DNA of 30,731 nucleotides from an uncultured Elusimicrobiaceae bacterium (GCA_964646805.1 CAZYFL010000001.1:1-30731); one strand, 5' to 3'. Positions 4,732 to 19,728 are shown, counted from the first letter of the stretch. Translations and numbers: made by a program. The notes: generated by a model from the letters alone, not told the origin.

Positions 4732-5934
4732 ATGGAAGTTCAGATTGAACCTTCATTGATATCCGAGGTTCGCAGATTCGGCGGATTTGACGCGGCTGCG
4801 TGCTACAATTGCGGCAGCTGCGCCGCCGTCTGCGCCTTGTCAAAAGATAATGCCATGTTTCCGCGCAACAGCATGAGATATGTGCAACTGGGACTGAGAA
4901 AGCCTTTATCAGGGAGCCTTGACCCCTGGCTGTGTTATTATTGCGGCGATTGCGCCACAACCTGTCCGAGACAGACCGAACCCGGCGAATCAATGATGAC
5001 CCTCAGACGGTATCTCATGTCCGTTTATGACTGGACGGGACTCTCTTCAAAATTTTATCGGTCAAAGTCGTGGCAAATAGGGGCGATTTTCCTGGCGGGC
5101 GCTTTAGTCCTGCTTCCAGCCGCGCTTATTCCCGCGTCTTTTGTGGCTGATTTTCATCAGAATTTAAGCGCTTCCAGGATCATGGAATTCGGCCATCTTC
5201 TTGAATTTACCTTAATATCCACGCTGGGTTTATTTGTTCTTCTCCCCAACATGTTCCGCATGTACTGGTTTGCCATGCACGCGGACAGCGATTTTAATGT
5301 ATGGAAAATTCCGTCGGCGCTGCTCCGGGACGGCCCTGGGTATGTCAGGAGCGAAAACAAGAAGATCAGGCTTTCCCCTGGTTTGTTTTTAAGGGAAGCC
5401 GTGACGCCGCTCCTTCATGGCGTCTTCCAGATAAAATTTCTGGAGTGCGCGGCGACGGCTAAAAACCGCTGGATAAAACACTGGCTGATCGCATCGGGAT
5501 ACATGCTGATGCTGGCGATGATAATTTTTCTGGGCTGGTTCAAAACGCTGGATTACCCGATCTATCATCCCGTGAGATTCCTTGGATATTATGCCACCGT
5601 CATTCTGGTCGTTTTTACCGCGGATGCGCTGATAGGGCGTATCAGGAAACGCGAGCAGGCGCACAAATTTAGCGAGTTAAGCGACTGGCTGTTTCTAATA
5701 TGGCTGTTTTTGATGGCGGCCAGCGCGCTGGCTGTTTATGTATTCATGAGCCTGGGGCTTGGGCGGATTGTTTACTACGCATACGTTTTCCATTTAATGG
5801 TGCTTGTCCAGTGGGCGCTCGTTATAGTTCCTTTCGGGAAATGGATACATTTCATGTATCGTCCGCTTGCGATTTATCTGCAATCAGTCAGGGAAAGAGC
5901 CTTAAAGGAATGCGCGGACAGGGTGTCGGCATGA
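4732..5934 (+). CDS. qmoC: QmoC-like membrane subunit (HdrC-like 2x[4Fe-4S] N-terminus plus HdrE/NarI-like transmembrane domain)
   Basis: CYNCGSCAAVC and CYYCGDCATTCP motifs, followed by several hydrophobic helices carrying His residues (RWIKHWLI, VFHLMVL...PFGKWIHFMYRP). Confidence 0.8.
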   Translation: MEVQIEPSLISEVRRFGGFDAAACYNCGSCAAVCALSKDNAMFPRNSMRYVQLGLRKPLSGSLDPWLCYYCGDCATTCPRQTEPGESMMTLRRYLMSVYDWTGLSSKFYRSKSWQIGAIFLAGALVLLPAALIPASFVADFHQNLSASRIMEFGHLLEFTLISTLGLFVLLPNMFRMYWFAMHADSDFNVWKIPSALLRDGPGYVRSENKKIRLSPGLFLREAVTPLLHGVFQIKFLECAATAKNRWIKHWLIASGYMLMLAMIIFLGWFKTLDYPIYHPVRFLGYYATVILVVFTADALIGRIRKREQAHKFSELSDWLFLIWLFLMAASALAVYVFMSLGLGRIVYYAYVFHLMVLVQWALVIVPFGKWIHFMYRPLAIYLQSVRERALKECADRVSA

Positions 5935-8900
5935 ACGCCGCACCCAAAAGCAACGGAGGTAAAATCGGCGCCGCCCTTGTGGTGGGCGGCGGCATAGGCG
6001 GAATGCAGGCATCGCTTGATCTTGCAGCCGCCGGCATTAAGGTTTATCTGATTGATTCGGGTCCCTGCATCGGCGGAGTGATGGCCCAGTTGGATAAAAC
6101 ATTCCCCACCAATGATTGTGCGATGTGCACAATGGCGCCGCGGCTGGTTGAAGTAAGCGCGCACAAAGACATTAAATTAATCACGCTGGCTGAGGTGGAC
6201 ACCATAACAGGGGAGGCCGGCAGTTTTACGGCAACTCTGAAAATAAAGCCGCGTTTTGTAGATGAGGAAAAATGCAACGGCTGCGGGGCATGCGTTCTGG
6301 TTTGCCCTATAGGCAGGATACAGCCTTCCAGTGACAAAAAAAACCCCCAGCCGTTGGCGGATGAGTATAACATGGGTTTGTCCTCCAGGCCTGCGATATA
6401 CATACCGTATCCTCAGGCCATACCTAATAAAGCCGTACTTGACTCGGCTAACTGCCTTTATTTTAAAACCGGCAAATGTAGCCTGTGCAAAAAAGTCTGC
6501 AAGGTTGACGCCATTGATTTTGAACAAAAAGAAAAACCGATTACCCTTAACGCGGGAGCGATAATACTGACGCCCGGCTATGAACTGTTTGACGCCGGAT
6601 TAAAGCCCGAATATGGGTATGGCGGCTTTAAAAACGTTCTGGCGTCTTTGGAATTTGAGAGAATACTGTCTGCTTCCGGCCCGTTTCAGGGCAAAATACT
6701 GAGGCCGTCCGACAAGACCGAGCCTAAAAAAATCGCCTTTATACAATGCATCGGTTCGCGCGACTGCGAAAGAGACTATTGCTCTGCGGTCTGCTGCATG
6801 TACGCCACAAAAGAGGCGCTTCTTGCCAAAGAACATCTTGGGGAAAAGCTGGAATGCGATATTTATTTCATGGATTTGCGCGCTTTCAGCAAGGGATTTG
6901 AGGAGTACTATTTAAGAGCCAGGAAGAACGGGATCAACTACATAAGATGCCGGCCCCCGTCCGTAGAAGAAGTTCCGCAGACTAAAAACCTGATTATCAA
7001 ATATGTGGCCGAAGATGAAAAAAAGGCGTCGCGCGAATATGACCTGGTGGTATTATCGGCGGGCCTCAGGCCTCCCAGGCATAGCGGGGAACTGGCCGCG
7101 AAGTTCGGCCTTGTGTTAAATAAGCATGGTTTTTGCGCAAACAGCGTTTTTGCGCCGGTTGATTCGCCAAAGCCCGGAATTTTTACCGCCGGCGCGTTTA
7201 CGGGACCCAAAGACATTCCTGAAACCGTTATTCAGGCGAGTTCCGCCGCGGCGAGGGCGCTGGAACTGCTGTCTGAGGCAAAAGGCTCGCGTATCTCAAA
7301 AAAAGAATATCCCCTTGAAACGGATATTTCGGGGCAAGAGCCGCGGGTCGGGATTTTCATATGTCACTGCGGCACAAACATAGCCGGCGTGGTAAATGTA
7401 GAAGAAGTGGCGGAATACGCAAAGAAACTGCCGAATGTCGTATATGCCGATAATATTCTTTATGCCTGCGCTAATGATAGCCAGGAAAAAATCAAAAAAA
7501 CAATTATCGGGCAGAAATTAAACCGCGTTATCGTGGCGGCATGCACTCCAAGGACCCATGAGTCTTTGTTCAGAAACACAATAAGGGAAGCCGGCTTAAA
7601 CTCTTATCTTTTTGAAATGGCAAATATCAGGGACCAGTGTTCCTGGGTGCATATGCATGAGCCTGGGAAGGCCACAAAAAAAGCCAAAGATCTGGTGCGC
7701 ATGGCATTGTCCAAAGCGAGGCTTATAGAGCCTCTGTATAGAAAGAACGTGCCGATAAGCAAAGGAGTTGTTGTTCTTGGCGGGGGATTGGCCGGAATGA
7801 CTGCGGCGCTGAGTCTTGCAAACCAGGGTTTTGACGTCCATTTGATTGAAAAGCAGGCGGCATTGGGCGGGAATTTGCGCAAACTCCATTATCTGTCTGA
7901 TGTGAGTTCCAAACCGCAACAATATCTGGAAACCATTACTGAGCGTGTCAGCCGGAATAAAAAAATCCATATTCACGTAAACGCAAAAATCCCGGTCATT
8001 GAAGGATTTATCGGCAACTTCACCACAAAGCTGTCGGATAACGGGGAATCCGGCGGGGAAATAAAGCATGGGGCGATAGTAGTGGCCACAGGCGCCGGGG
8101 AGCACAAGCCCGGCGAATATCTGTACGGCAAGAATCCCAATGTCTTAACACAACTTGAACTGGAAGAACGGTTAGCCAATGACGGCAGGAGCTTTTTAAG
8201 CGCCGTAGGCCGTGCGCCTAAAACAGTGGTTATGATTCAATGTGTCGGCTCGCGCGAGACTGCCCGTCCCTATTGCAGCCGCCTGTGCTGCAATCAGGCG
8301 GTTAAAAATGCGTTAAAAATTAAGGAACTGAGCCCGGAAACAAACGTATATATTCTGTACCGGGATATGAGAACATACGGCTTTGGGGAAGGTTATTATA
8401 CGCAAGCCAGACAGGAAGGCGTGGTGTTCATAAGATACGATGAAAACAAAAAACCCGAATTAGCGGAGCATTCAGGAAATTTATTATCGATTAAATGTTT
8501 TGAGCCTATTTTGCGCATGGACATTGTCTTAAACGCGGATTTGGCGGTTTTATCAGCCGCGGTCGTCCCGCAGCCGGAGAATAAAGAGCTTGCCCAGATG
8601 CTTAAAGTTCCTCTTGATGCTAACGGATTTTTCCTTGAGGCTCATATGAAACTCAGGCCGGTGGATTTCGCCAATGACGGCATATTTTTGTGTGGTATGG
8701 CGCATTTCCCAAAAGCTATTGACGAGACTATTGCGCAGGCAAATGCCGCCGCCGCGCGGGTGGCGGCAATACTTTCAAACGACACTATGGAACTTGACGC
8801 CAATATTTCAAGCGTCATTGATGAAAACTGCGACGGCTGCGCCTACTGCGTTGACCCTTGTCCCTATAAGGCCGTCACACTGATTGAATACATGAAGAAC

Positions 8901-9050
8901 GGCGCGATAAAGAAAACCGTTGAGGTCAACTCAAGCCTCTGCAAGGGCTGCGGAGTCTGCCAGGGCACCTGCCCGAAGAAGGCCGTAGTAGTGAAAGGTT
9001 TTAAGCTGGAGCAGCTTTCCGCCATGGTGGACGGCTTGTTAAAAGAGTAG
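5931..9050 (+). CDS. hdrA: Large two-module HdrA-family flavoprotein (QmoA+QmoB-like fusion, about 1039 aa)
   Basis: Start at ATG 5931 (ATGA overlap with the upstream stop). Module 1: VVGGGIGG, LDKTFPTNDCAMC, inserted ferredoxin, CIGSRD..YCSAVCC. Module 2: RVGIFICHCG, ACTPRTH, NIRDQCSWVH, VLGGGLAG, CVGSRE..YCSRLCC, and C-terminal CDGCAYCVDPCP / CKGCGVCQGTCP. Confidence 0.92.
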   Translation: MNAAPKSNGGKIGAALVVGGGIGGMQASLDLAAAGIKVYLIDSGPCIGGVMAQLDKTFPTNDCAMCTMAPRLVEVSAHKDIKLITLAEVDTITGEAGSFTATLKIKPRFVDEEKCNGCGACVLVCPIGRIQPSSDKKNPQPLADEYNMGLSSRPAIYIPYPQAIPNKAVLDSANCLYFKTGKCSLCKKVCKVDAIDFEQKEKPITLNAGAIILTPGYELFDAGLKPEYGYGGFKNVLASLEFERILSASGPFQGKILRPSDKTEPKKIAFIQCIGSRDCERDYCSAVCCMYATKEALLAKEHLGEKLECDIYFMDLRAFSKGFEEYYLRARKNGINYIRCRPPSVEEVPQTKNLIIKYVAEDEKKASREYDLVVLSAGLRPPRHSGELAAKFGLVLNKHGFCANSVFAPVDSPKPGIFTAGAFTGPKDIPETVIQASSAAARALELLSEAKGSRISKKEYPLETDISGQEPRVGIFICHCGTNIAGVVNVEEVAEYAKKLPNVVYADNILYACANDSQEKIKKTIIGQKLNRVIVAACTPRTHESLFRNTIREAGLNSYLFEMANIRDQCSWVHMHEPGKATKKAKDLVRMALSKARLIEPLYRKNVPISKGVVVLGGGLAGMTAALSLANQGFDVHLIEKQAALGGNLRKLHYLSDVSSKPQQYLETITERVSRNKKIHIHVNAKIPVIEGFIGNFTTKLSDNGESGGEIKHGAIVVATGAGEHKPGEYLYGKNPNVLTQLELEERLANDGRSFLSAVGRAPKTVVMIQCVGSRETARPYCSRLCCNQAVKNALKIKELSPETNVYILYRDMRTYGFGEGYYTQARQEGVVFIRYDENKKPELAEHSGNLLSIKCFEPILRMDIVLNADLAVLSAAVVPQPENKELAQMLKVPLDANGFFLEAHMKLRPVDFANDGIFLCGMAHFPKAIDETIAQANAAAARVAAILSNDTMELDANISSVIDENCDGCAYCVDPCPYKAVTLIEYMKNGAIKKTVEVNSSLCKGCGVCQGTCPKKAVVVKGFKLEQLSAMVDGLLKE

Positions 9051-9054
9051 TTTT

Positions 9055-9510
9055 ATGGAAAACACCCCCGAATCAGCGATTGACACGGTTGCGGCTGGAA
9101 ACGTGTTTGAACCGGTTATTGTGGCGTTTTGCTGCAACTGGTGTTCCTACACCGGCGCAGATCTCGCGGGAACCTCCCGGTTTCAGTATCCGGCCAATAT
9201 CAGGATAGTACGGGTGATGTGTTCGGGCATGGTGCATCCGAACCTGGTAATAGACGCTTTCACCAAGGGCGCCGATGGTGTGATTATCTGCGGGTGCCAC
9301 CATGGCGACTGCCACTATATCGACGGAAACCTAAAGTGCGAAAAGCGCGTTGAGGCAATTAAGCTTTTGCTGGAAGATTTCGGCATTGAACAGGACCGGT
9401 TCAGGCTGGAATGGATTTCAGCTTCGGAGGGGCCCAGGTTCGCGCAGGTTATGACGGACATGACCGGGCAGGTTAGAAAACTCGGGCCGAGCCCGTATAA
9501 GGGAGGCTGA
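9055..9510 (+). CDS. mvhD: Methyl-viologen-reducing hydrogenase delta subunit ([2Fe-2S])
   Basis: IVAFCCNWCSYTGADLAG, RVMCSGMV, GADGV..GCHHGDCHY and ISASEG motifs. Confidence 0.93.
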   Translation: MENTPESAIDTVAAGNVFEPVIVAFCCNWCSYTGADLAGTSRFQYPANIRIVRVMCSGMVHPNLVIDAFTKGADGVIICGCHHGDCHYIDGNLKCEKRVEAIKLLLEDFGIEQDRFRLEWISASEGPRFAQVMTDMTGQVRKLGPSPYKGG

Positions 9511-9511
9511 T

Positions 9512-9703
9512 ATGGCTGAACCGGCTAAAATCATCAATTCAAAGAAATTCATGTGGGATGGCAGGGAATACGCCGATGCCGCCGGAGCCGCGGCCGCGGC
9601 AAAAACTTACGAGCAGGCGGGCTTTGAAGCGCAGGCGTTGGAAGAAGGCGGGAGACATCTGGTGTATTCAAGACGTTTGGCCGTGTCACAGACGACCTCA
9701 TAA
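9512..9703 (+). CDS. Small hypothetical protein embedded in the mvh operon
   Basis: 63 aa (KKFMWDGREY...YEQAGFE...LVYSRR). Strong RBS GGGAGG, 1-nt gap to mvhD, same strand. Confidence 0.7.
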   Translation: MAEPAKIINSKKFMWDGREYADAAGAAAAAKTYEQAGFEAQALEEGGRHLVYSRRLAVSQTTS

Positions 9704-9732
9704 GAGTCTAAACAAGTATAAGGAGGCGGATT

Positions 9733-10683
9733 ATGGCGGTAAAAGTAGCTGAAGAATGGCTTAATATATGCGGAGGATGCGAGGTTTCCATACTGGATAT
9801 AGGAGAACCGCTGGTTGAGATTCTGCCGCAGCTTGAGTTCGTGCATATGCCGGTACTGATGGATAATAAATATTACGGGCAGACAGGGGATAAACCGAAC
9901 CTAGAGATTCCCGGCGCGGATGTGGGCATAATCTCCGGCGGAGTACGCAACGAGAAGGAAAAGCATGTGGCATTGGAAATGCGCAAAAAATGCAAGACCG
10001 TAATTTCCCTCGGGTCCTGCGCCTGCTACGGCGGCATTCCGGCTCTGGCCAACATGTCCCCGAATGCGGAGCTCCTGGATAAAGTTTACAGGCAGAGCAA
10101 AAGCACCGAACCCGCCGAAACGCCGAAAGAAAATCTGCCTCCCCTTCTGGATCGGGTTTATGCGCTGGACGAAGTGATAAAGGTAGACATTTACATCCCG
10201 GGCTGTCCGACTTCGCCGGACTGGATCAAGGCCGCGATAACAGCCCTTTTAACCGGCAAGCCGTTTACGATGCCGGATAAGAGCGTCTGCGACGAATGCC
10301 CCACAAAACGCGAAAAGAAAGCCGCCGGCGGACAGATTAAGCGGTCGCTTGAAGGCGTTCAGTTCAAGCAGGGCGAACCGTGGGAAAATACCCGGTGTTA
10401 TATGGAGCAGGGGCATCTGTGCCTGGGCCCCGTAACCAGGGCCGGCTGCGCCGGCATCACCACTGAAGCCGGCGAATCGCCGGCGCCGCGCTGTATCAAG
10501 GGTTACATGCCCTGCAGAGGGTGTTTCGGCCCGGTAAAAAAGGATTCAAACCCCCTCGTTGACATGATGACGGCAATTTCCTCCATCGGCCTTGAAGCCG
10601 GCCAGGTGGCCGACCGCAGGGCTTTGCTTAACCGCTATATCGGCAGCCAGGGAAGATTACGACCGCTTCCCGCCAGGAAATAA
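9733..10683 (+). CDS. mvhG: Group 3c [NiFe]-hydrogenase small subunit
   Basis: WLNICGGCE, GSCACYGG, YIPGCP, CDEC, CYMEQGHLCLGP, and CIKGYMPCRGCFGP motifs. RBS AGGAGG. Confidence 0.92.
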   Translation: MAVKVAEEWLNICGGCEVSILDIGEPLVEILPQLEFVHMPVLMDNKYYGQTGDKPNLEIPGADVGIISGGVRNEKEKHVALEMRKKCKTVISLGSCACYGGIPALANMSPNAELLDKVYRQSKSTEPAETPKENLPPLLDRVYALDEVIKVDIYIPGCPTSPDWIKAAITALLTGKPFTMPDKSVCDECPTKREKKAAGGQIKRSLEGVQFKQGEPWENTRCYMEQGHLCLGPVTRAGCAGITTEAGESPAPRCIKGYMPCRGCFGPVKKDSNPLVDMMTAISSIGLEAGQVADRRALLNRYIGSQGRLRPLPARK

Positions 10684-10713
10684 TAAACTGTTAAAGAAGG
10701 AGACACAACCACT

Positions 10714-12159
10714 ATGGGAAAAATAATCACCATCGCGCCCGTATCAAGGCTTGAAGGGCACTTAAAAGTGTCAGTGAATCTCGATGATGCCGGCAATGTG
10801 TCCGACACGTTCGTGCAGGCGGTTGAACTGCGGGGGTTTGAAAAATTTTGTATAGGACGCCCCGTTGAGGAGATGCCGAGGATCGTCACTTCCATCTGCG
10901 GCGTCTGCCCCTGGTCGCATCACCTGGCGTCGGCCAAAGCCTGCGACGCGGTTTTCGGGGTTACACCCCCGCCTACCGGCAGGAAACTCCGGGAACTCTG
11001 CAATGCCATAGCCTACTGCGAGGAGCATATACTCCATTTCTTCTTCCTTGCCGGAGCGGACTTCGTGCTCGGCCCCGGCGCGGATTACAAGATCCGGAAC
11101 ATTTTCGGCATTGTCAAAGCCGCTCCGGAACTTTCGGCCAGGGTGGTAAGAGCAAGGCATCTGGGCGTGAGGATGCTCAATGTGGTCTCGGGCAAATCCA
11201 TACACCCCGTCACCGCCGTGCCGGGCGGGTTTTCAAAACCGCTTCGCGAAGAAGAGCGCAAGCTGATACTGCCAATGGCCGGAGAAGTGCTTGAGTTCGC
11301 CAAAATGGCCATAGCCTGGGCGAAAAAAGACATTTTCCCCAGATATCCGGATGCGGTTAAGACCATCGGAATAATAAAGACCGGCTTCATGGCCACCGTG
11401 GACGCGGGCGGCGCCATGAATCTCTATGACGGCAAGATACGGCTTATGAAGGCCGACGGCACGCACATAGACTTTGACGATTCAAACTACCTGGACTATA
11501 TAGGCGAGAAAGTCCTGCCCTGGTCATACATGAAGTTCCCCTACGCCAAAACCTGGGGCGAGGGGTTCTCCATGGATCTTGACAACCCGAAGGGCATCTA
11601 CAGGACCAATACGCTGGCGAGGGTAAATGCCTGCGAGAGCATCCCTACTCCTCTCGCCCAGGCCGAGCTTGAAGAGTTCAGGAAGCTTTTCGGCAGGCCC
11701 GTGCAGGCCACGCTCCTCTACAATTGGGCTAGGCTCATAGAGCTGCTCTACAATGCGGAGCGGACCGTGGAGCTCCTTAACGACAAGGAAATAACCGGCG
11801 CCGAAACGCGCGTGCCGGTAACGCCCAGGGCCGCCAGGGGCGTGGGCCACGTTGAGGCCCCGAGAGGTACGCTCTTCCACGACTACGAAACCGACGAGAA
11901 CGGCATGGTCAGGAACGTGAACCTTATCGTCGGGACCACTCATAACAACGGGCCCATAAACATGTCGGTGAAGCAGACCGCCATGGCGTTGATAAGGGAC
12001 GGCAAATACGACGAAGAAATTCTCAACAAGATTGAGATGTCCATCCGCGCCTATGACCCCTGCGTTTCCTGCGCCACGCACGACCTGGACGGGAAAATAA
12101 TGGTCAGCGTAGACATAAACGGTCCGGACGGAAAACTAATAAAAAATTTCCGAAATTAG
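10714..12159 (+). CDS. mvhA: Group 3c [NiFe]-hydrogenase large subunit
   Basis: SRLEGH, ELRGFE, L1 PRIVTSICGVCPWSHH, VEAPRGTLFH, LIVGTTHNN, and L2 RAYDPCVSCATH followed by a cleavable 25-aa C-terminal extension. Cys, not Sec. Confidence 0.95.
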   Translation: MGKIITIAPVSRLEGHLKVSVNLDDAGNVSDTFVQAVELRGFEKFCIGRPVEEMPRIVTSICGVCPWSHHLASAKACDAVFGVTPPPTGRKLRELCNAIAYCEEHILHFFFLAGADFVLGPGADYKIRNIFGIVKAAPELSARVVRARHLGVRMLNVVSGKSIHPVTAVPGGFSKPLREEERKLILPMAGEVLEFAKMAIAWAKKDIFPRYPDAVKTIGIIKTGFMATVDAGGAMNLYDGKIRLMKADGTHIDFDDSNYLDYIGEKVLPWSYMKFPYAKTWGEGFSMDLDNPKGIYRTNTLARVNACESIPTPLAQAELEEFRKLFGRPVQATLLYNWARLIELLYNAERTVELLNDKEITGAETRVPVTPRAARGVGHVEAPRGTLFHDYETDENGMVRNVNLIVGTTHNNGPINMSVKQTAMALIRDGKYDEEILNKIEMSIRAYDPCVSCATHDLDGKIMVSVDINGPDGKLIKNFRN

Positions 12160-12178
12160 GTGGATAAAACAAATCAGT

Positions 12179-12733
12179 ATGAATAAACAGGATAATCTTT
12201 CCGGGTTGCATCCGTCCGAAGAGCGGACGGAATACGATACGGACGGGAAAAGAACGCTGGTGATAGGCTGCGGGAACGTGTTACTCGGCGATGACGGTTT
12301 CGGCCCCGCGGTCATAAAAGCCCTTTCAACCGGGTCCGTGCCGCCGCACGTTGCGCTTATAGACGCCGGCACCGGTATAAGGAAGGTTCTCTTCAATATT
12401 GTGCTTTCAGAGCAAAAACCGGAAAAGATAATTATTCTCGACGCGGTCCGCAAAGAGGGACGCCGGCCGGGAGAAGTGTTTGAGCTGGCGCTAAATGAAA
12501 TGCCGCCGCAAAAGGCGGAGGACTTTTCCGTCCACCACCTGCCCACCACCAATATGCTGCGCGAACTTCAGAAGGACTGTGGCGTAAAAGTAATGATAAT
12601 AGCGGCGCAGGTTGCCATGCTTCCCTGTGAAATGTCCTGTGGTTTATCCGGGCCCGTAGCAAGAGCCGTCCTGAAAGCGAAGAAAATAGCAGCAAGGGAA
12701 CTGTGTGGGCAAACGAGCGGAGTGAGGCAATGA
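12179..12733 (+). CDS. Hydrogenase maturation endopeptidase (HycI/HyaD family)
   Basis: VIGCGNVLLGDDGFG, IDAG, IILDAV and SVHHLP motifs. Directly after mvhA. Confidence 0.92.
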   Translation: MNKQDNLSGLHPSEERTEYDTDGKRTLVIGCGNVLLGDDGFGPAVIKALSTGSVPPHVALIDAGTGIRKVLFNIVLSEQKPEKIIILDAVRKEGRRPGEVFELALNEMPPQKAEDFSVHHLPTTNMLRELQKDCGVKVMIIAAQVAMLPCEMSCGLSGPVARAVLKAKKIAARELCGQTSGVRQ

Positions 12734-14112
12734 GCGGCTTGATTCCGGAAATATTGCAGACAGAACTCCTGCAGGAGGTACTGGCTCAGACCAGGGAGCC
12801 GTCTTCGGCGGCTGTTTCGGAAATTCTTGACCGCGCGCGGGATAAGAAAGGGCTGGCCCTTAGAGATGTCGGCTATCTGGCGAACCTTAAAGAGCCGGAA
12901 CTCGTCCGCAAACTTTTTCATGCCGCAGCGGTTATAAAGCGGGAAATCTACGGCGAGCGGCTGGTTTTCTTCGCGCCGCTGTATATCTCCGACTATTGTG
13001 TTAACGATTGCGAATATTGTAATTTCCATGCCGGTAACAAGCAACTGGCGCGGCGCAAACTCACTATGGCTGAAGTGGGCGCTCAGACCGCATTCCTGAT
13101 AGACCAGGGACATAAAAGAATCCTGCTTGAGGCAGGCGAAGATCCGGTTAACAATGATATAGAATATATCGTTGATGCCATAAATAAAATATACTCCGTC
13201 CGGACTCCCAAAGGCAATATCCGCCGCATCAATGTTAACATTGCGGCCGCCACGGTGGAAAACTACCGTAAACTCAAAGGGGCCGGCATCGGCACCTATC
13301 AACTTTTTCAGGAGACCTACCACCGGCCGACTTATGAGCGGTTGCATTGCGGTCCGAAGGCGGACTTTGAACGCCAGATTACCGCCCATCTTCGCGCCTT
13401 TGAGGCAGGCATTGACGATGTCGGGGTGGGCGCGCTTTTCGGGCTTTATGACTGGCGGTTTGAGGCGCTTGCGCTGGTCGCGCACAGCCAGTATCTTGAA
13501 AAAACCAATAATGCAGGCCCGCACACTATTTCAGTGCCGCGGATATGCGCGGCGCCAACCGTTGACTATAAACCCCAATACCCCGTCAGCGACGACGATT
13601 TCCTTAAACTGATTGCTATCCTGCGGCTGGCCGTTCCGTATACCGGAATAATTCTCTCTACCAGGGAACGGCCGGAGGTCAGAAAGCTTGCCTTCAAGAT
13701 CGGTATTTCGCAGGCAAGCGCCGGATCGGTTGCCGTTACCGGCGGCTATGGCAAAAAGGAGCGGCAGCCGCAATTTACGATTAATGATGAACGCTCCATG
13801 CAGGACGTAATCAGCGATGTTATAAAAGATAAACATCTGCCCAGTTTCTGCACGGCTTGCTACCGGAGCGGCCGGACCGGCGAGCGCTTTATGGCGCTTG
13901 CCAAGCCGGGGGATATCCATAAATTATGCCGGCCCAACGCAATCATAACTTTCGCCGAATATCTGACCGATTGCGCCACTGACGAACTGCGCAAGAAAGG
14001 CGGCCGCCTCATTGAGGAATCCGTTAACGGAATAGAAGAACTTCCGCTGCGCCGGGAAACCAGGAATCGGCTTGCCCGCATCGCCGCCGGTGAACGGGAT
14101 ATTTATTTCTAA
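12730..14112 (+). CDS. hydG: HydG-type radical SAM tyrosine lyase (CO/CN- synthase)
   Basis: Start at ATG 12730 (ATGA overlap with the protease stop). FAPLYISDYCVNDCEYC (CX3CX2C), QLFQETYH, GPHTISVPR (dangler-Fe His), and C-terminal FCTACYR-x-CRPNA with CX2CX22C spacing, ending GERDIYF. These features separate HydG from ThiH. Confidence 0.9.
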   Translation: MSGLIPEILQTELLQEVLAQTREPSSAAVSEILDRARDKKGLALRDVGYLANLKEPELVRKLFHAAAVIKREIYGERLVFFAPLYISDYCVNDCEYCNFHAGNKQLARRKLTMAEVGAQTAFLIDQGHKRILLEAGEDPVNNDIEYIVDAINKIYSVRTPKGNIRRINVNIAAATVENYRKLKGAGIGTYQLFQETYHRPTYERLHCGPKADFERQITAHLRAFEAGIDDVGVGALFGLYDWRFEALALVAHSQYLEKTNNAGPHTISVPRICAAPTVDYKPQYPVSDDDFLKLIAILRLAVPYTGIILSTRERPEVRKLAFKIGISQASAGSVAVTGGYGKKERQPQFTINDERSMQDVISDVIKDKHLPSFCTACYRSGRTGERFMALAKPGDIHKLCRPNAIITFAEYLTDCATDELRKKGGRLIEESVNGIEELPLRRETRNRLARIAAGERDIYF

Positions 14113-14121
14113 GGAAGAGCT

Positions 14122-15390
14122 ATGTGTTACGCCATTCCCGGCAAAGTGGTGGAAATTAACGGCCAGGTTGCTACGGTTGATTATTACGGCGAATGCAGAA
14201 AAGCATATACCGACCTGACCGAAACTGCCATCGGAGACTATGTCTACGCCCAGGGCGGTTTTATCATCCGGACGGTTCCCGTACCTGAAGCGCGGGAGAT
14301 ACTCTCGGATTGGCGCGGACTTTTCTTCAAACTGCAGGGGATTGACCGGAAACTCACCAGCAACCCGCGCACTATCTACGGACGCGCCAACGCCATCAGA
14401 CATAAATATCAGGGTAATTCCTGTTGTGTCCACGGTATACTGGAATTCTCCAATTATTGCAAAAACAACTGCCTATACTGCGGCATCAGGAATGATAATA
14501 GCTCTGTTACCCGCTACCGGATGACGCCGGAGGAGATCCTGGAGGCGGTTGGCTATGCGGTAGAGAAATTGGGGTTTAAGGCGCTGGTGCTGCAATCCGG
14601 AGAAGATCCGTATTACGATGAGGATAAACTGGAAGGTATTGTCCGGGAGATTCGCGCGCGTTACCCCGTCCTTCTTTTTGTCTCAATAGGGGAACGGCCG
14701 CTGTCAACCTACCGGAAGCTGTACCAGGCCGGCGCGCGCGGGGCGCTTATCAGGTTTGAAACCGCTAACCCGGACATTTATGCCGGTGTAAAACCCGGTT
14801 GCGATCCTGCGCAGCGCGTTAAATTAATAAAAGAGATCGGTGAACTGGGCTATCTGATTATTACGGGTTTCCTGGTGGGATTGCCGGGTGAAACGAATCG
14901 TGACGTCATCAGGAATATCAAACTCACCGGAAAACTCGCAGGCGGCCGTTTTGAGGGGCAGAGGCCGGACAGGCTTGACGCAACTTCCGTTAAGGCGCAG
15001 ACAGGCCCTGTCGCCGAAGCTTCAATGAAGGAGGGGATGTTCTCATTCGGCCCGTTTATCGCTCATCCACGCACGCCGCTGGCAGGTACGCCGCCGCCGG
15101 AATTAAGCCGGATGCTTAATACTATTGCCCAGGCCAGGTTGATGTATCCCGCTGCGCGGATAGTTGTTACCACCGCATTGGAAACACTGGATACCCAAAA
15201 CGGCGCGCGGGAAGGGCTGATGGCCGGAGCCAATTCGCTGATGATAAATATAACGCCAATCAAATACCGCCGGCTCTATGAGATATATCCCAACCGCGCC
15301 GGCGCCGGGGATGACATCCCTGCAAGGATTGATTCCGTCCTGAAACTCCTCCATTCGCTGGGCAGGGCGCCGACCGATATCGGAATCTGA
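14122..15390 (+). CDS. hypC-hydE: Fusion: N-terminal HypC/HupF chaperone domain plus HydE-like (BioB/PylB superfamily) radical SAM domain
   Basis: N-terminus MCYAIPGKVVEI...GDYVYAQGGFII (HypC: MCLAIPGKVVEI...GDYVLVHxGFAI). Then HGILEFSNYCKNNCLYCGIR, YRMTPEEI, VLQSGED, RFETANPDIY, GFLVGLPGET, GPFIAHPRTPL and GANSLMINITPIKYRRLYEIYP, all HydE-like. One continuous 422-aa ORF. Confidence 0.85.
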   Translation: MCYAIPGKVVEINGQVATVDYYGECRKAYTDLTETAIGDYVYAQGGFIIRTVPVPEAREILSDWRGLFFKLQGIDRKLTSNPRTIYGRANAIRHKYQGNSCCVHGILEFSNYCKNNCLYCGIRNDNSSVTRYRMTPEEILEAVGYAVEKLGFKALVLQSGEDPYYDEDKLEGIVREIRARYPVLLFVSIGERPLSTYRKLYQAGARGALIRFETANPDIYAGVKPGCDPAQRVKLIKEIGELGYLIITGFLVGLPGETNRDVIRNIKLTGKLAGGRFEGQRPDRLDATSVKAQTGPVAEASMKEGMFSFGPFIAHPRTPLAGTPPPELSRMLNTIAQARLMYPAARIVVTTALETLDTQNGAREGLMAGANSLMINITPIKYRRLYEIYPNRAGAGDDIPARIDSVLKLLHSLGRAPTDIGI

Positions 15391-15464
15391 GAGAAGTCGG
15401 GTCTCTGTAAACCGGGTTTTCACCCACAGGAAACGGCGAAGACCCACTTTGTATAATTACCCCT

Positions 15465-15869
15465 ATGCATGAATGGGCTTTGGCTGAATCCGTTATAAAA
15501 GCGGCGGTTGAACACGCCGGCGCTGAAAAACTTAAAAAACTTAAAGAGACCGGCGTAGTCTTCGGCGGGCTGCAGGCCATAGACAAAGACGTCTTTGTTT
15601 TCGCGCTGGAGGAGATGCGCAAGCAGTTCCCCTGCGCCAAAGCCTGCAAATTCAAGATAATAAAACAGCCCGCGGCTTTCCGCTGCAAGGCCTGCTCTCA
15701 CGAGTTCACGTTAAAGGGCCTGAAAAAGACAAAAGACGAGGCCGAGTTCATACACTTCGTGCCCGAGATGGCGCATGCCTTCCTGAAATGCCCCAAATGT
15801 AAGAGCCCGGATTTTGAAATTTCCGCCGGGCGCGGCGTCAGTATCAGCTACATCAAGGGGAATAGATGA
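15465..15869 (+). CDS. hypA: Nickel metallochaperone HypA, long Thermococcales-like form
   Basis: MHEWALAESV Ni site, CKAC and CPKC Zn motifs separated by the extended EFIHFVPEMAHAFL segment, and GRGV C-terminus. Confidence 0.92.
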   Translation: MHEWALAESVIKAAVEHAGAEKLKKLKETGVVFGGLQAIDKDVFVFALEEMRKQFPCAKACKFKIIKQPAAFRCKACSHEFTLKGLKKTKDEAEFIHFVPEMAHAFLKCPKCKSPDFEISAGRGVSISYIKGNR

Positions 15870-16726
15870 CTAGCCTGAAAGTTTCAGTTGGCTCGTCTCA
15901 CCGGCGAAAGCCGGTGTCCAGATTCCGACGAGACCTGGATTCCGGCTTTCGCCGGAATGACGGAATAAAAAAATCCGACCCAGCCCGACGATTATGTCAC
16001 TCCAACTGCAATTTTCAGGCTAGTGTTGACCCCAGGCCTTCCGTAATAGAAGAGCGGCTTAAAAAGGTAAAGCGGATCATTGCCGTTACCGGCTGGAAGG
16101 GCGGCATAGGCAAGAGCGTAATTGCCTGCGCGCTGGCGCTGCTGCTTGCAAAAAAGGGCTATAAAACGGGCCTGTTTGATTTGGACTTCGCCGGGGCTTC
16201 CGACCATATAATACTGGGAGCCGGAGGGCTGTTTCCAAAAGAGGAAAAAGGCCTTGAACCGCCGTTGTTTGAAGGCGTGAAGTTTATGTCGGTGGTCTTT
16301 TTCTCGGAGAACAAGGCCGTGCCGCTGCGCGGGGCAAATGTTTCCGACGCAATAATAGAACTGCTGGCTATAACGCAGTGGGGGGAACTGGACTTCCTGG
16401 TGCTGGACATGCCGCCCGGCATAAACGACGCCGCGCTGGATGTCCTGCGCTTCGCGGGAAAGGCCGAAGTGCTGGCCGTGACCACGCCTTCAGTGATAGC
16501 CCGCGACGTGCTGGCGCGGTCGCTGGTTCTTTATCGCGGGCTTAAAGCGCCGGTGCTGGGTGTGTTGGAGAACATGGCGCGCGGCCCGGCGCCAAAGGGC
16601 ATCGCAGCCCGCCTGCGCTTTGATCCCGGGCTTGAAGCGGCGCTTGGCCATCCCGCCGCCCTGATAAAAACCGCTTTTTGCCGCGACCTGATTAGCGCGC
16701 TTAAGATACTTAAACTGGAAGAGTGA
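15866..16726 (+). CDS. hypB: ATPase-type HypB (Mrp/MinD family P-loop ATPase) carrying an in-frame 50-codon MITE insertion
   Basis: DPR..IEERLKKVKRIIAV, deviant Walker A WKGGIGKS, LDLDFAGASDHIILG, PLRG..VSDAIIELL.IT.W.ELDFLVLDMPPG, VLENM. Lacks the CXXC of Fe-S carrier Mrp/ApbC. ATGA-coupled to hypA. Confidence 0.8.
   Translation: MTSLKVSVGSSHRRKPVSRFRRDLDSGFRRNDGIKKSDPARRLCHSNCNFQASVDPRPSVIEERLKKVKRIIAVTGWKGGIGKSVIACALALLLAKKGYKTGLFDLDFAGASDHIILGAGGLFPKEEKGLEPPLFEGVKFMSVVFFSENKAVPLRGANVSDAIIELLAITQWGELDFLVLDMPPGINDAALDVLRFAGKAEVLAVTTPSVIARDVLARSLVLYRGLKAPVLGVLENMARGPAPKGIAARLRFDPGLEAALGHPAALIKTAFCRDLISALKILKLEE
15870..16023. mobile_element. MITE-like element (146 bp plus CTAG duplication) inserted in frame in hypB
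   Basis: ACTAGCCTGAAAGTTTCAGTTGG (15869-15891) and CCAACTGCAATTTTCAGGCTAGT (16002-16024) form a 23-bp inverted repeat with 2 mismatches. CTAG occurs at both ends (15870-15873, 16020-16023). Deleting 150 nt restores ATG ACT AGT GTT GAC CCC AGG (MTSVDPR). Confidence 0.75.
15894..15962. repeat. REP-like palindromic element nested inside the MITE
   Basis: CCGGCGAAAGCCGGtgTCCAG (15901-15921) pairs with CTGGATTCCGGCTTTCGCCGG (15935-15955), with outer CGTC/GACG. Translates as LDSGFRRND, a peptide typical of this palindrome class. Confidence 0.75.
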
Positions 16727-16755
16727 GAATCTTTGTTGAGGCTATGGTTGACGCC

Positions 16756-17274
16756 CTATTTTACTATCTCCCAACTGATGGATAAAGTAATCCTTTCATC
16801 GCTTACCACAACATCCACTTTCTTTGCGCCGTCTTTTGTTCTCTGGTAAGCTTCCGCCATCACATATTGGACTGAATGCATATTCCTGGGAAACATTTCA
16901 ACAACCTTAAAGATTTTAGGATCGCTATCGCCTCTGACCGCCCAATAACTGAAGATCCGGCAACTTCTGTCGTCTTTTTCTACGTTTGCCGATACGGCCC
17001 CTGCCTTCAATCGGCGATACGCTTCGGCCATAAGCGCCTGGTAGGGCGTAGATGCGGGTAATTTTTCTATGCTCAGCATGGTACCGGGTTTATATGTCGC
17101 GGGCATTGGTCCAATTTTTTCCGCAACCTTAACCATTGCAGACGCTGAAGGAACGGCATTTTCCAGCGCCGCCGATGGAACCGCTGATTTAAGTTCCTCA
17201 ATTGCGCTTTCGGAAGCATAAGAGTTTCCAAAAGCTGTTATCGCAAGAACTGCTACAAAGAATACTTTTTTCAT
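16756..17274 (-). CDS. Secreted hypothetical protein with an internal duplication
   Basis: Signal peptide MKKVFFVAVLAITAFGNSYA. Repeats LMAEAYRRLKAGA and VMAEAYQRTKDGA. RBS GGGAGG. Confidence 0.75.
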   Translation of the reverse strand: MKKVFFVAVLAITAFGNSYASESAIEELKSAVPSAALENAVPSASAMVKVAEKIGPMPATYKPGTMLSIEKLPASTPYQALMAEAYRRLKAGAVSANVEKDDRSCRIFSYWAVRGDSDPKIFKVVEMFPRNMHSVQYVMAEAYQRTKDGAKKVDVVVSDERITLSISWEIVK

Positions 17275-17474
17275 AAGACCTCCCAGTGTTTAGCAATACA
17301 CATAGTCTAGCGCAAACAGGGTTTGCGCGTCAGGGTATAAGGGCTCTTTAACTTACGATAACTGCTTGTTTTGTGTGGGTCTTTTGACTGGGCCGCCAGG
17401 CCTATCTACCATGGGTCTTTGTGCCCAATCCAGGAGCCTGCGCGCGGTCTCTTGTCGTTCCCGGAAGCAGCGGC

Positions 17475-19082: not shown

Positions 19083-19728
19083 TAATATGAGATGCAGGAT
19101 AGCCAGGAGAATAGCCAGGGAATTACCCGGGAACTCAATAGTCAACCTCGGCATCGGGATACCCACCCTGGTCGCTGATTTTATACCCAAAGACAAAGGG
19201 ATACTTTTGCATTCCGAGAACGGGTTTATCGGCCTGGGCGCGGCTCCCGAGCCCGGCAAAGAAGACCCCAATCTTGTGAATGCCGGCGGCCAGGCCGCCA
19301 CCCTCCTGCCGGGAGGATGCTGTTTTGATTCGTCCATGTCTTTCGCGATAGTGCGCGGGAAACACCTGGATTACACAATACTGGGCGCCCTGGAAGTGGA
19401 CGAGGAGGGCAACCTAGCCAACTATACGATCCCGGGAAAATTCGTCCCCGGCATAGGCGGGGCAATGGACCTCTCCGTAGGCGCTAAGAACGTTGTGATC
19501 GCCATGGAACACATGAACAAACACGGTGAGCCGAAGATAGTAAAGAAATGCTCCCTTCCGCTCACTGCGCCGCGGGAAGTAAACCTTATTGTCACCGAGC
19601 TGGCCTTTATAAGGGTTACGCCTGCGGGCCTGGCGCTGGAAGAAATTGCCGAGGACACGACGGTGGAGGAAGTGATAAAGAACACCGGCGCCAGACTTAT
19701 AATAGCGGAAACCCCTGGCCGCTTTTAA
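19075..19728 (+). CDS. atoA: Family I CoA-transferase subunit B
   Basis: Start at ATG 19075. IARRIAREL, VNLGIGIPT, catalytic SENG, GKHLDYTILGALEVD, GIGGAMDL. Confidence 0.88.
   Translation: MDDNMRCRIARRIARELPGNSIVNLGIGIPTLVADFIPKDKGILLHSENGFIGLGAAPEPGKEDPNLVNAGGQAATLLPGGCCFDSSMSFAIVRGKHLDYTILGALEVDEEGNLANYTIPGKFVPGIGGAMDLSVGAKNVVIAMEHMNKHGEPKIVKKCSLPLTAPREVNLIVTELAFIRVTPAGLALEEIAEDTTVEEVIKNTGARLIIAETPGRF

What the first reader, a model, noticed from the sequence alone, without database searches (positions are those of the whole stretch)
10714..16726. Candidate hybrid [NiFe]-hydrogenase maturation pathway: HydG and HypC-HydE occupy the place of HypD/HypE/HypF
Seen in sequence: mvhA is followed on one strand by protease, hydG, hypC-hydE fusion, hypA and ATPase-type hypB. 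ATGA overlaps link protease/hydG and hypA/hypB, and there is a 9-nt gap from hydG to the fusion. No hypD, hypE, hypF, hydF or [FeFe] hydA occurs in the window. Established knowledge: HypE/HypF make CN- from carbamoyl phosphate, HypD with HypC assembles Fe(CN)2CO, HypC delivers it to the large subunit, and HypA/HypB insert Ni. HydG cleaves tyrosine to CO and CN- and releases an Fe(CO)2(CN)-cysteine synthon that HydE processes. Inference: the missing functions (diatomic ligand synthesis and Fe scaffolding) are exactly those that HydG and HydE could supply. Their physical fusion to HypC suggests a tyrosine-derived, radical-SAM route to the [NiFe] Fe site. I know of no description of this arrangement, but I cannot search the literature.
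Basis: partly seen in the sequence, partly recalled or inferred. Interest (0 to 1): 0.95.

Follow-up and report, generated by a model that had tools for sequence, protein, structure and literature searches.

The report
HydG plus HypC-HydE fusion in [NiFe]-hydrogenase operons
A groundwater bacterium's nickel-iron hydrogenase operon carries two radical-SAM enzymes normally used to build iron-iron hydrogenases, one fused to the iron-delivery chaperone HypC, and this pairing recurs next to nickel-iron hydrogenases in many phyla without the usual HypD/E/F genes nearby, pointing to an undescribed way of building the enzyme's iron centre.

Summary
On one strand lie hdrA-mvhD-mvhG-mvhA, an endopeptidase, a canonical hydG, a hypC::hydE fusion, hypA and an ATPase-type hypB. 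The stated ATGA overlaps and the 9-nt gap are present. The window holds no hypD/E/F, hydF or hydA.

The fusion is a real, widespread family, found in 351 GTDB species and at least 444 metagenome contigs. In 160 non-redundant loci, HydG is present in 102. [NiFe]-specific genes of groups 3b, 3c and 4, or the protease, HypA or HypB, are present in 93. That is 58 of the 87 loci with at least 8 kb of flank. HydF or [FeFe] HydA occur in 9 loci. HypD, HypE, HypF and standalone HypC occur in none.

Some Omnitrophota loci carry the fused HydE beside [NiFe] genes and a second, unfused HydE beside HydG and an [FeFe] hydrogenase. The fused family keeps HypC's Cys2 and HydE's SAM and substrate residues. 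It replaces His51 with Gln and remodels HydE's product cavity (R54H, H52C, loss of R155).

The best reading is a HydG-fed, HypC-delivered route to the [NiFe] iron site. Genome-wide absence of hypDEF could not be tested, and two loci sit with HydF and [FeFe] genes. I found one passing mention in a 2026 preprint. The cultured Caldatribacterium saccharofermentans carries the cluster.

The parts
5931..9050 (+). HdrA-like flavoprotein. The ORF opens at 5700; the likely start is the ATG at 5931, which overlaps the upstream stop.
   Evidence: Pfam Pyr_redox_2, FAD and 4Fe-4S domains. Relatives occur beside Mvh genes in L007, L029 and L068.
9055..9510 (+). MvhD, the delta subunit of the group 3c hydrogenase.
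   Evidence: PF02662 FlpD, 187.6 bits.
9512..9703 (+). Conserved 63-aa ORF of unknown function between mvhD and mvhG.
   Evidence: Called as a gene in L008. A homologous 62-aa ORF sits at the same place in L007.
9733..10683 (+). MvhG, the [NiFe] hydrogenase small subunit.
   Evidence: PF01058, 108.9 bits; VhuG, 226.7 bits.
10714..12159 (+). MvhA, the [NiFe] group 3c large subunit, with a C-terminal extension after DPCVSCATH.
   Evidence: VhuA, 432 bits. Motifs read in the translation.
12206..12733 (+). [NiFe] large-subunit maturation endopeptidase (FrhD/HycI type). The ORF opens at 12179.
   Evidence: TIGR00072, 115.1 bits; PF01750, 68.4 bits. The gene call in L008 gives 175 aa.
12730..14112 (+). 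HydG, a radical-SAM tyrosine lyase with the C-terminal CX2CX22C cluster domain. Its start overlaps the protease stop (ATGA).
   Evidence: TIGR03955, 528.7 bits against a cut-off of 312. 499.7 bits to T. italicus HydG 4WCX, with CVNDCEYC, GPHTIS and C-X2-C-X22-C aligned. Junction read.
14122..14355 (+). HypC-like domain of the fusion (aa 1-78): MCYAIPG N-terminus, OB-fold plus helix, and Gln44 in place of HypC His51.
   Evidence: PF01455, 55.2 bits. PDB HypC 2Z1C, E = 7e-11. Invariant M1 C2 Y3 I5 P6 G7 Q44 in 153 homologues.
14371..15390 (+). HydE-like radical-SAM domain of the fusion (aa 84-422). It includes a lineage-specific disordered insertion at about aa 267-305 (nt about 14920-15036).
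   Evidence: TIGR03956, 233 bits. TmHydE, 221.9 bits. AF2 model with pLDDT 87.5 and pTM 0.87, with residues 278-301 below 50. Foldseek top hits are TmHydE. Signature residues.
15465..15869 (+). HypA nickel metallochaperone.
   Evidence: NF003008, 145.6 bits; PF01155, 78 bits.
15866..16726 (+). ATPase-type (Mrp/MinD) HypB. Its start overlaps the hypA stop (ATGA). The first ~65 aa have no homology, so the true start may lie further downstream.
   Evidence: PF10609, 155.9 bits. The best PDB match is T. kodakarensis HypB 3VX3 at 205.9 bits, against 113 for a generic Mrp. Junction read.

Best explanation
HydG and the HypC::HydE fusion form a module that makes and delivers the iron-carbonyl-cyanide unit of [NiFe] hydrogenases. 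Here the recipient is the Mvh group 3c enzyme.

Proposed sequence:
1. HydG, which is canonical in every tested feature, cleaves tyrosine and builds an Fe(CO)x(CN)y-cysteine synthon on its C-terminal cluster. This follows from established HydG chemistry.
2. The HydE domain uses SAM radical chemistry to strip the cysteine scaffold. This is inferred from its conserved SAM and substrate residues.
3. Canonical HydE dimerises two Fe(I) units in its lower cavity. The fused enzyme instead retains a mononuclear unit on the family-specific Cys102/His104 site. This is inferred.
4. The unit passes to the N-terminal Cys2 thiolate of the covalently attached HypC domain, which inserts it into apo-MvhA. This is inferred by analogy with HypC.
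5. HypA and the ATPase-type HypB then insert nickel, and the endopeptidase removes the C-terminal extension. This is the established order.

The module most likely stands in for HypC, HypD, HypE and HypF. In organisms that also have an [FeFe] hydrogenase, HydG would feed two HydE paralogues, one for each enzyme class.
For: Anatomy of the window:
- The genes run protease-hydG-fusion-hypA-hypB on one strand, with 4-nt overlaps and a 9-nt gap.

Conserved synteny in 160 non-redundant loci from genomes and metagenomes:
- HydG lies next to the fusion in 102 loci.
- A [NiFe]-specific gene is present in 93 loci, and in 58 of the 87 loci with at least 8 kb of flank.
- 72 loci show direct same-strand contiguity with such genes.
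- Typical architectures are 3b(beta-gamma-delta-alpha)-protease-HypA-FUS-HydG, Mrp/Mbh-protease-HydG-FUS and Hdr-Mvh-protease-HydG-FUS-HypA-HypB.
- Three different [NiFe] groups are involved.
- Phyla include Elusimicrobiota, Omnitrophota, Planctomycetota, Margulis- and Saganbacteria, Spirochaetes and Atribacterota.
- 59 of the 62 neighbouring large subunits carry DPCxxCxx[HR] plus a cleavable extension.

Absences:
- There were no HypD, HypE, HypF or free HypC hits in any of the 160 loci.
- The same E. coli queries detect archaeal HypD and HypE at 269 and 229 bits.
- A published survey of 951 [NiFe] neighbourhoods found 748 HypC, 615 HypD, 953 HypE and 600 HypF genes (PMC12727194).

Paralogue split:
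- L081, L084, L131 and L133 read [NiFe 3b]-protease-fused HydE ... [FeFe A6 HydABC]-HydG-unfused HydE.

Sequence signatures in 153 fusions:
- Cys2 is invariant.
- D40N, D49N, H52C and R54H are invariant; R155 becomes G/A/S and T134 becomes F/I/V.
- Q107, R159, R180, M224, T268/T269, M291, Y303 and Y306 are kept.
- R54, T134, R155 and T269 are the residues reported to contact the CN ligands of the two Fe(I) units in TmHydE (PMC11826987).

HydG:
- It is canonical, with 499.7 bits to 4WCX and all cluster motifs.
Against: - Whole genomes could not be read, so hypCDEF, hydF and hydA may lie elsewhere in this and the other genomes.
- In L023 and L028 (=L001) the pair sits 4 kb from hydF and about 10 kb from an [FeFe] hydA, with no other HydE nearby.
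- The closest named relatives (Planctomycetota, 62-65% identity) and the DPANN archaea carry the fusion, or the pair, with no hydrogenase within 10 kb.
- HydG's known product carries 2 CO + 1 CN, whereas the [NiFe] site needs 1 CO + 2 CN. No step for this exchange is identified.
- His51, which is important for Fe binding in E. coli HypC (from my own knowledge), is replaced by Gln.
- There are no experimental data of any kind.
Confidence: 0.55

Rival explanations
1. HydG and the fused HydE are ordinary [FeFe]-hydrogenase H-cluster maturases. They serve a HydA and HydF encoded elsewhere and are merely co-located or co-regulated with other hydrogenase genes. The HypC-like domain would be an accessory iron-carrier domain of a HydE subfamily.
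For: - HydG is canonical.
- The HydE domain scores close to the TIGR03956 cut-off and keeps the SAM and substrate residues.
- In L023 and L028/L001 the pair lies with hydF and an [FeFe] hydA, and the neighbouring 730-aa radical-SAM protein is HxsC-like, not HydE.
- NCBI names many members HydE.
Against: - HydF or HydA occur in only 9 of 160 loci, and 6 of those 9 also hold [NiFe] genes. [NiFe]-specific genes occur in 93 loci.
- The module is inserted between the [NiFe] endopeptidase and hypA/hypB in several phyla.
- Genomes with an unfused HydE place that copy, not the fusion, next to HydG and the [FeFe] hydrogenase.
- The dimerisation-cavity residues R54 and R155 are lost in every fusion.
Confidence: 0.2
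2. The module supplements a conventional HypCDEF machinery encoded elsewhere. For example, it could supply the anaerobic CO ligand, whose source is still unknown, or a pre-ligated iron. The HypC-like domain would dock onto HypD or onto the large subunit.
For: - The source of CO under anoxic conditions is listed as unresolved in the 2025 review PMC12134894.
- HydG makes CO.
- The HypC fold and Cys2 are conserved.
- hyp genes are often scattered in genomes (from my own knowledge), so their absence from 20-kb neighbourhoods does not prove absence from the genome.
Against: - No hypD lies next to the HypC-like domain in any of 160 loci, although hypC-hypD adjacency is the norm.
- HydG also makes cyanide, which would make HypE and HypF redundant.
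- The preprint on the 1.52-Mb Centrionella genome lists only the protease, HypA, HypB and the fusion as its maturation machinery. This is weak evidence.
Confidence: 0.15
3. The module builds some other metallocofactor or modification needed by the neighbouring redox complexes and is unrelated to the hydrogenase active site.
For: - Radical-SAM enzymes of the BioB/HydE/PylB/HmdB clade are functionally diverse (one search lists cross-hits).
- Some loci show no hydrogenase at all.
Against: - The only shared feature of the neighbouring operons (groups 3b, 3c and 4) is the [NiFe] catalytic dimer and its protease, HypA and HypB.
- The HypC and HydG identities are specific.
Confidence: 0.05

Closest known systems
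HypC-HypD-HypE-HypF assembly of Fe(CN)2CO for [NiFe] hydrogenases (E. coli, Thermococcus kodakarensis)
   Same: It has the same presumed target, the apo large subunit with four Cys ligands and a cleavable C-terminus. It uses a HypC-fold carrier with an N-terminal Cys2. It has the same downstream steps: HypA/HypB nickel insertion, then the endopeptidase.
   Different: No HypD scaffold, HypE or HypF lies in the window or in any of 160 related loci. Cyanide would come from tyrosine rather than carbamoyl phosphate. HypC is covalently fused to a radical-SAM enzyme, and its His51 is replaced by Gln.
HydG-HydE-HydF maturation of the [FeFe]-hydrogenase H-cluster
   Same: HydG is indistinguishable from characterised HydG, with 499.7 bits to 4WCX and all motifs. 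The HydE domain has the TmHydE fold, the CX3CX2C motif and the SAM and substrate residues.
   Different: HydF and HydA are absent from the window and from 151 of 160 loci. The HydE carries an N-terminal HypC domain. The cavity residues that hold the two Fe(I) units (R54, T134, R155) are replaced, with invariant Cys and His introduced. The genomic partner is a [NiFe] enzyme.
'Unusual HydE-HypC fusion protein' noted in the [NiFe] operon of Candidatus Centrionella anaeramoebae (bioRxiv 10.64898/2026.04.11.717937)
   Same: It appears to be the same kind of fusion in the same kind of operon, with protease, HypA and HypB.
   Different: It is a single passing sentence. There is no HydG, no comparison across genomes, no comment on missing HypDEF and no mechanism. 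I did not compare its sequence with the window.
HypX, the aerobic route to the CO ligand of [NiFe] hydrogenases
   Same: It is a known example of an alternative enzyme supplying a diatomic ligand for the [NiFe] iron.
   Different: HypX adds to HypCDEF rather than replacing it. It uses formyl-tetrahydrofolate and CoA, is not a radical-SAM enzyme, and works under oxic conditions.
HcgA/HcgG radical-SAM enzymes of [Fe]-hydrogenase (FeGP cofactor) biosynthesis
   Same: These are radical-SAM enzymes of the same BioB/HydE-like clade used for a hydrogenase iron-carbonyl cofactor. The HmdB model gives a weak cross-hit.
   Different: The cofactor is different (guanylylpyridinol-Fe(CO)2). There is no HypC-like carrier and no HydG.

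Membership tests
HydG (TIGR03955, [FeFe] H-cluster radical-SAM maturase) | Whole-protein score above the curated cut-off | tested here: met
   528.7 bits against a cut-off of 312.15.
HydG | Radical-SAM CX3CX2C motif, C-terminal CX2CX22C auxiliary-cluster motif and the conserved His of the dangler-iron site | tested here: met
   CVNDCEYC, CTAC-X22-C and GPHTIS align with T. italicus HydG 4WCX. 80 of 94 fusion-adjacent HydGs show both motifs.
HydG | Works with HydF and an [FeFe] HydA | tested here: inconclusive
   Neither is in the 30.7-kb window. They occur in 9 of 160 related loci. The rest of the genome could not be read.
HydE (TIGR03956) | Whole-protein score above the curated cut-off | tested here: not met
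   233 bits against 254.6 for the window. The uninterrupted L081 fusion scores 254.5.
HydE | TIM-barrel radical-SAM fold with CX3CX2C and the SAM/substrate residues of TmHydE | tested here: met
   TmHydE, 221.9 bits. Foldseek TM-score 0.85 normalised to the target. C63/C67/C70, Q107, R159, R180, M224, T268/T269, M291, Y303 and Y306 are conserved.
HydE | Polar cavity residues R54, T134 and R155 that contact the CN ligands of the two Fe(I) units | tested here: not met
   R54 is His in 153 of 153 fusions. R155 is G/A/S. T134 is F/I/V in 139 and retained as T in 7 (by alignment). H52 is Cys in 153 of 153. The role of these residues is taken from PMC11826987.
HypC/HybG/HupF chaperone (PF01455, TIGR00074) | Family score and fold | tested here: met
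   PF01455 scores 55.2 bits against a cut-off of 28.5. TIGR00074 scores 46.3 against 48, marginally under. PDB HypC 2Z1C, E = 7e-11.
HypC | Cysteine directly after the initiator Met (MC..PG motif) | tested here: met
   MCYAIPG. M1, C2, I5, P6 and G7 are invariant in 153 homologues.
HypC | Conserved His51 (E. coli numbering) | tested here: not met
   The aligned position is Gln44, invariant in 153 of 153 fusions. The alignment to E. coli HypC was made by eye on the sequence from L089.
HypC | Partner scaffold HypD encoded alongside | tested here: not met
   0 of 160 loci have HypD within up to 10 kb. Controls.
Conventional HypABCDEF [NiFe] maturation set | Presence of HypD, HypE and HypF in the genome | not testable with these tools
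   They are absent from the window and from all fetched loci. No tool reads whole genomes.
[NiFe] hydrogenase group 3c (Mvh/Vhu) | Large subunit with N- and C-terminal CxxC nickel-iron ligands, a small subunit, MvhD and an adjoining HdrA | tested here: met
   VhuA 432 bits, VhuG 226.7 bits, FlpD 187.6 bits and HdrA domains. Motifs read.
ATPase-type (Mrp/MinD) HypB | Closer to the characterised Thermococcus HypB than to generic Mrp/ApbC, and coupled to hypA | tested here: met
   3VX3 scores 205.9 bits, against 113.2 for the next Mrp. ATGA overlap with hypA.

The most novel reading that the evidence does not exclude
HypCDEF is not universal. A sizeable set of anaerobic bacteria would build the Fe(CO)(CN)2 centre of [NiFe] hydrogenases from tyrosine, using the radical-SAM enzymes HydG and a HypC-fused HydE. 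These include Elusimicrobiota, Omnitrophota, Atribacterota, Margulis- and Saganbacteria, some Planctomycetota and others, perhaps also DPANN archaea. All three hydrogenase classes would then have a radical-SAM maturation route, and the fusion would be an evolutionary bridge between the [NiFe] and [FeFe] machineries.
Probability: 0.4. Interest if true: 0.95.

Novelty: new variant of a known kind. Interest (0 to 1): 0.85.

Why it matters
- Reviews up to 2025 treat the six Hyp proteins as necessary for every [NiFe] hydrogenase (PMC12134894). They also list the anaerobic source of the CO ligand as unresolved.
- A HydG-fed route would give a defined, tyrosine-derived origin for both CO and CN in a large group of mostly uncultured anaerobes.
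- It would explain [NiFe] operons that appear to lack the iron-ligand half of the maturation machinery.
- It would change how hydrogenase potential is scored in metagenomes. At present the fusion is variously annotated as HydE, biotin synthase, radical SAM protein or HypC.
- It would offer a compact cassette of two genes in place of four for heterologous [NiFe] hydrogenase production.
- Caldatribacterium saccharofermentans carries the cluster, has a closed genome and grows in pure culture, so the idea is directly testable.

Tried and rejected
- Whole-genome test for hypDEF, hydF and hydA. This was not possible. A HypD query to the protein database would list only the hits nearest the query, without genome identity.
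- Literature. Ten full-text searches found no description of a HydG/HydE role in [NiFe] maturation. The only hit was the passing preprint sentence. Dodsworth 2013 and Nobu 2016 on Atribacteria are not held. Supplements of the two relevant 2026 papers are not held.
- Promoter and terminator scan of 3700-17400. Counts were no higher than in shuffles, so it was uninformative.
- Structure. The first job was lost and the repeat gave a confident model. Coordinates are not exposed, so I could not measure the distance between Cys2 and Cys102/His104.
- HydG specialisation. The only signature difference between 94 fusion-adjacent and 5 other HydGs was Ti-Tyr251 to Phe. With so few comparators I rejected this as evidence.
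- The idea that the 730-aa radical-SAM protein in L001 is a second HydE. It is HxsC-like.
- The idea that the fusion is a frameshift artefact. I rejected it because of 153 independent full-length copies and a conserved linker helix.

Full report
**1. What is in the window**

The + strand between about 5.7 and 16.7 kb holds one tightly packed gene array. Its members are:
- an HdrA-like flavoprotein (ORF from 5700, likely start 5931);
- MvhD (9055-9510);
- a conserved 63-aa ORF (9512-9703);
- MvhG (9733-10683);
- MvhA (10714-12159);
- a FrhD/HycI-type endopeptidase (to 12733);
- HydG (12730-14112);
- a 422-aa HypC::HydE fusion (14122-15390);
- HypA (15465-15869);
- a P-loop ATPase (15866-16726).

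ATGA at 12730 joins the protease and hydG. Nine bases containing GGAAGAG separate hydG from the fusion. ATGA at 15866 joins hypA and hypB.

MvhA has the usual nickel-iron cysteine motifs and a C-terminal extension. The ATPase is much closer to the characterised Mrp/MinD-type HypB of Thermococcus (3VX3, 205.9 bits) than to generic Mrp proteins (113 bits).

No other large ORF of the window is HypD, HypE, HypF, HydF or an [FeFe] HydA. A housekeeping gene (LeuC) is 95% identical to that of an Elusimicrobiota MAG. The same DNA is found in Hainich groundwater assemblies.

**2. The two radical-SAM genes**

HydG is canonical.
- It scores 528.7 bits against TIGR03955 (cut-off 312).
- It scores 499.7 bits against Thermoanaerobacter italicus HydG.
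- The radical-SAM motif, the C-terminal CX2CX22C motif and the GPHTIS histidine all align.
- Comparing 94 HydGs that sit beside fusions with five others gave one weak signature difference, which I do not rely on.

The fusion has a complete HypC fold at its N-terminus. PF01455 scores 55 bits and T. kodakarensis HypC matches at E = 7e-11. A conserved helix joins it to a HydE-type TIM barrel, which scores 222 bits against TmHydE.

An AlphaFold model built on 30 homologues is confident (pLDDT 87.5, pTM 0.87). The exception is a 25-40-residue insertion peculiar to the window's lineage. Foldseek places the model with TmHydE.

**3. The fusion is a widespread family**
- All 120 best database hits carry both domains.
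- A pattern scan of one genome per GTDB species found 351 species with a relative.
- A metagenome scan found at least 444 contigs.
- A search from a distant member added Atribacterota.
- All 153 full-length copies begin MCY.IPG.
- Databases name these proteins inconsistently: HydE, biotin synthase, radical SAM protein or HypC family.

**4. Genomic company**

I translated every ORF of the fetched loci and compared them with three sets of reference proteins:
- proteins from the window;
- E. coli HypA-F;
- HydF, HydA and subunits of the group 3b and group 4 hydrogenases, taken from the loci themselves and identified by Pfam/NCBIfam.

Counts in the 160 non-redundant loci:

| Feature within the flank | Loci |
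|---|---|
| HydG | 102 |
| Any [NiFe]-specific gene (large or small subunit, endopeptidase, HypA, HypB, group 3b beta subunit, Mrp/Mbh membrane subunits) | 93 |
| ... the same, among the 87 loci with at least 8 kb of flank | 58 |
| [NiFe] large subunit | 61 |
| Endopeptidase | 59 |
| HydF or [FeFe] HydA | 9 (6 of them also with [NiFe] genes) |
| HypD, HypE, HypF or free HypC | 0 |

- In 72 loci the fusion is directly contiguous, on the same strand, with [NiFe] genes.
- Typical orders are beta-gamma-delta-alpha-protease-HypA-FUS-HydG, Mrp/Mbh-protease-HydG-FUS, and, in the window, Hdr-Mvh-protease-HydG-FUS-HypA-HypB.
- The neighbouring large subunits are real hydrogenases. 59 of 62 carry DPCxxCxx[HR] followed by a 7-41-residue extension.

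The zero for HypD, HypE and HypF is not a sensitivity problem. The E. coli HypD and HypE queries find their archaeal counterparts at 269 and 229 bits. For comparison, a published neighbourhood survey of 951 [NiFe] large subunits counted 748 HypC, 615 HypD, 953 HypE and 600 HypF genes (PMC12727194).

**5. Two HydE paralogues**

Four Omnitrophota loci (L081, L084, L131, L133) hold both enzyme classes in one stretch. The order is:
- a group 3b [NiFe] operon, its protease and the fused HydE;
- then Rex and a sensor kinase;
- then an [FeFe] group A6 HydABC;
- then HydG and a second, unfused HydE.

That second copy has the canonical N-terminus and the canonical 'ILRGIIEFSN' strand in place of the family's 'CCVHGI'. 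This split is what one expects if the fused copy serves the [NiFe] enzyme and the plain copy serves the [FeFe] enzyme, with HydG shared.

**6. Sequence signatures**
- The HypC domain keeps the essential Cys2, but Gln replaces His51 in every copy.
- The HydE domain keeps the radical-SAM cysteines and the residues of the upper active site: Q107, R159, R180, M224, T268/T269, M291, Y303 and Y306 (TmHydE numbering).
- Four positions near the bottom of the barrel are changed in all 153 copies: D40N, D49N, H52C and R54H.
- R155 is always G/A/S, and T134 is F/I/V in 139 of 153 copies.
- A computational study of TmHydE names R54, T134, R155 and T269 as the residues that contact the cyanide ligands of the two Fe(I) units before they dimerise (PMC11826987).

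I infer that the fused enzyme still processes a HydG-type synthon. I also infer that it no longer makes the diiron product and instead offers Cys/His ligands for a single iron unit.

**7. Most likely mechanism, and its weak points**

The proposed sequence is:
1. HydG makes the iron-carbonyl-cyanide-cysteine synthon.
2. The HydE domain removes the cysteine scaffold.
3. The mononuclear product is handed to Cys2 of the attached HypC domain and inserted into the apo large subunit.
4. HypA and HypB add nickel.
5. The protease trims the C-terminus.

Only the gene content, the synteny and the residue patterns are shown. The chemistry is inferred.

The weak points are:
- Whole genomes could not be inspected.
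- Two Omnitrophota species place the pair with hydF and an [FeFe] hydrogenase, with no other HydE in view.
- Planctomycetota and DPANN copies have no hydrogenase within 10 kb.
- The known HydG product has two CO and one CN, whereas the [NiFe] iron has one CO and two CN.

**8. Prior knowledge**

The full-text searches found no paper that assigns HydG or HydE to [NiFe] maturation. The 2025 review of [NiFe] cofactor biosynthesis mentions neither HydG nor radical-SAM chemistry.

[quoted passage not shown] It does not comment further.

Subscription journals are not covered by the library, so earlier mention elsewhere cannot be excluded.

**9. An experimental handle**

The family member P0267 lies in the closed 2.26-Mb genome CP187957.1 of Caldatribacterium saccharofermentans. 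There it ends a group 3b operon: beta-gamma-delta-alpha-HycI-HypA-fusion. The organism was recently obtained in pure culture and produces H2 (PMC13408713).

**10. Verdict**

The association of the HydG/HypC::HydE module with [NiFe] hydrogenases is strong and conserved. Replacement of HypCDEF is plausible but untested at the genome level and untested biochemically. It is a new variant built from known parts, and I rate its interest as high.

Noticed in passing
window 9512-9703 (+); L007 3383-3571: A 63-aa ORF sits between mvhD and mvhG. A recognisable homologue (..K.MWDG..Y......A....Y....F..Q...E.G..L.Y.RR.A.S) sits at the same position in an 82%-related cluster. No family was assigned.
   Followed up: partly
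window 14920-15036 (aa about 267-305 of the fusion): A lineage-specific insertion lies in the HydE domain. It is absent from about 99% of the family and is predicted disordered (pLDDT below 50 for residues 278-301). It is the reason the protein falls below the TIGR03956 cut-off.
   Followed up: partly
window 5700-9050 and 4732-5934: The HdrA ORF is 1116 aa with two FAD/NAD-binding regions. Its first 77 codons overlap the upstream Fe-S protein gene, and an ATG at 5931 gives another ATGA-type overlap. The relative in L007 is a 1530-aa GltD-HdrA-like fusion. The Hdr partner here is therefore atypical.
   Followed up: no
window 15866-16060: The first ~65 residues of the HypB ORF are Arg-rich and match nothing. 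The Mrp/HypB homology starts at about aa 53-65. The real start may be an internal codon, or this may be a lineage-specific tail.
   Followed up: no
L081, L084, L131, L133 (Omnitrophota; the L081 contig is 922 kb): These loci hold a hydrogenase supercluster on one strand, about 15 kb long: [NiFe] 3b operon, protease, fused HydE, Rex, sensor kinase, [FeFe] A6 HydABC, response regulator, HydG and an unfused HydE.
   Followed up: yes
L170 (CP187957.1 1894819-1916117): The closed genome of the cultured Caldatribacterium saccharofermentans carries 3b-HycI-HypA-fusion. There is no HydG, HypB or HypDEF within 10 kb. An RT-Cas1/Cas2 pair and an IS605 OrfB gene lie just upstream.
   Followed up: partly
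L069-L071, L074-L076 (Altiarchaeota, Woesearchaeota, Micrarchaeota, Aenigmatarchaeota MAGs): DPANN archaea carry the fusion and HydG as an isolated pair, with no hydrogenase, HydF or Hyp gene within 10 kb. What the pair serves in these small genomes is unknown.
   Followed up: partly
L003/L005 (Brocadiia/Planctomycetota) 11196-11580: In several Planctomycetota the fusion stands alone. It is followed, with a 1-4-nt overlap or gap, by a holo-ACP synthase (PF01648) gene. HydG and hydrogenase genes are absent from the flanks.
   Followed up: no
protein database entries P0007-P0360: Annotation of the family is inconsistent across sources: '[FeFe] hydrogenase H-cluster radical SAM maturase HydE', 'biotin synthase', 'radical SAM protein' and 'HypC/HybG/HupF family chaperone'. 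Genome surveys may therefore miscount both HydE and HypC.
   Followed up: no
window 18411-29319: Downstream lie a CoA-transferase A/B pair, TerC, an isopropylmalate-dehydrogenase-like gene, an HMGL-like gene, a family III CoA-transferase, aconitase-family large and small subunits, a metallophosphoesterase and a tungsten-type aldehyde:ferredoxin oxidoreductase. This could be an organic-acid pathway cluster.
   Followed up: no
window 1448-3754 (-) and 16756-18317 (-): Five minus-strand ORFs of 172-280 aa have no Pfam match. The 2-4 kb region has a strongly negative AT skew (-0.28).
   Followed up: no
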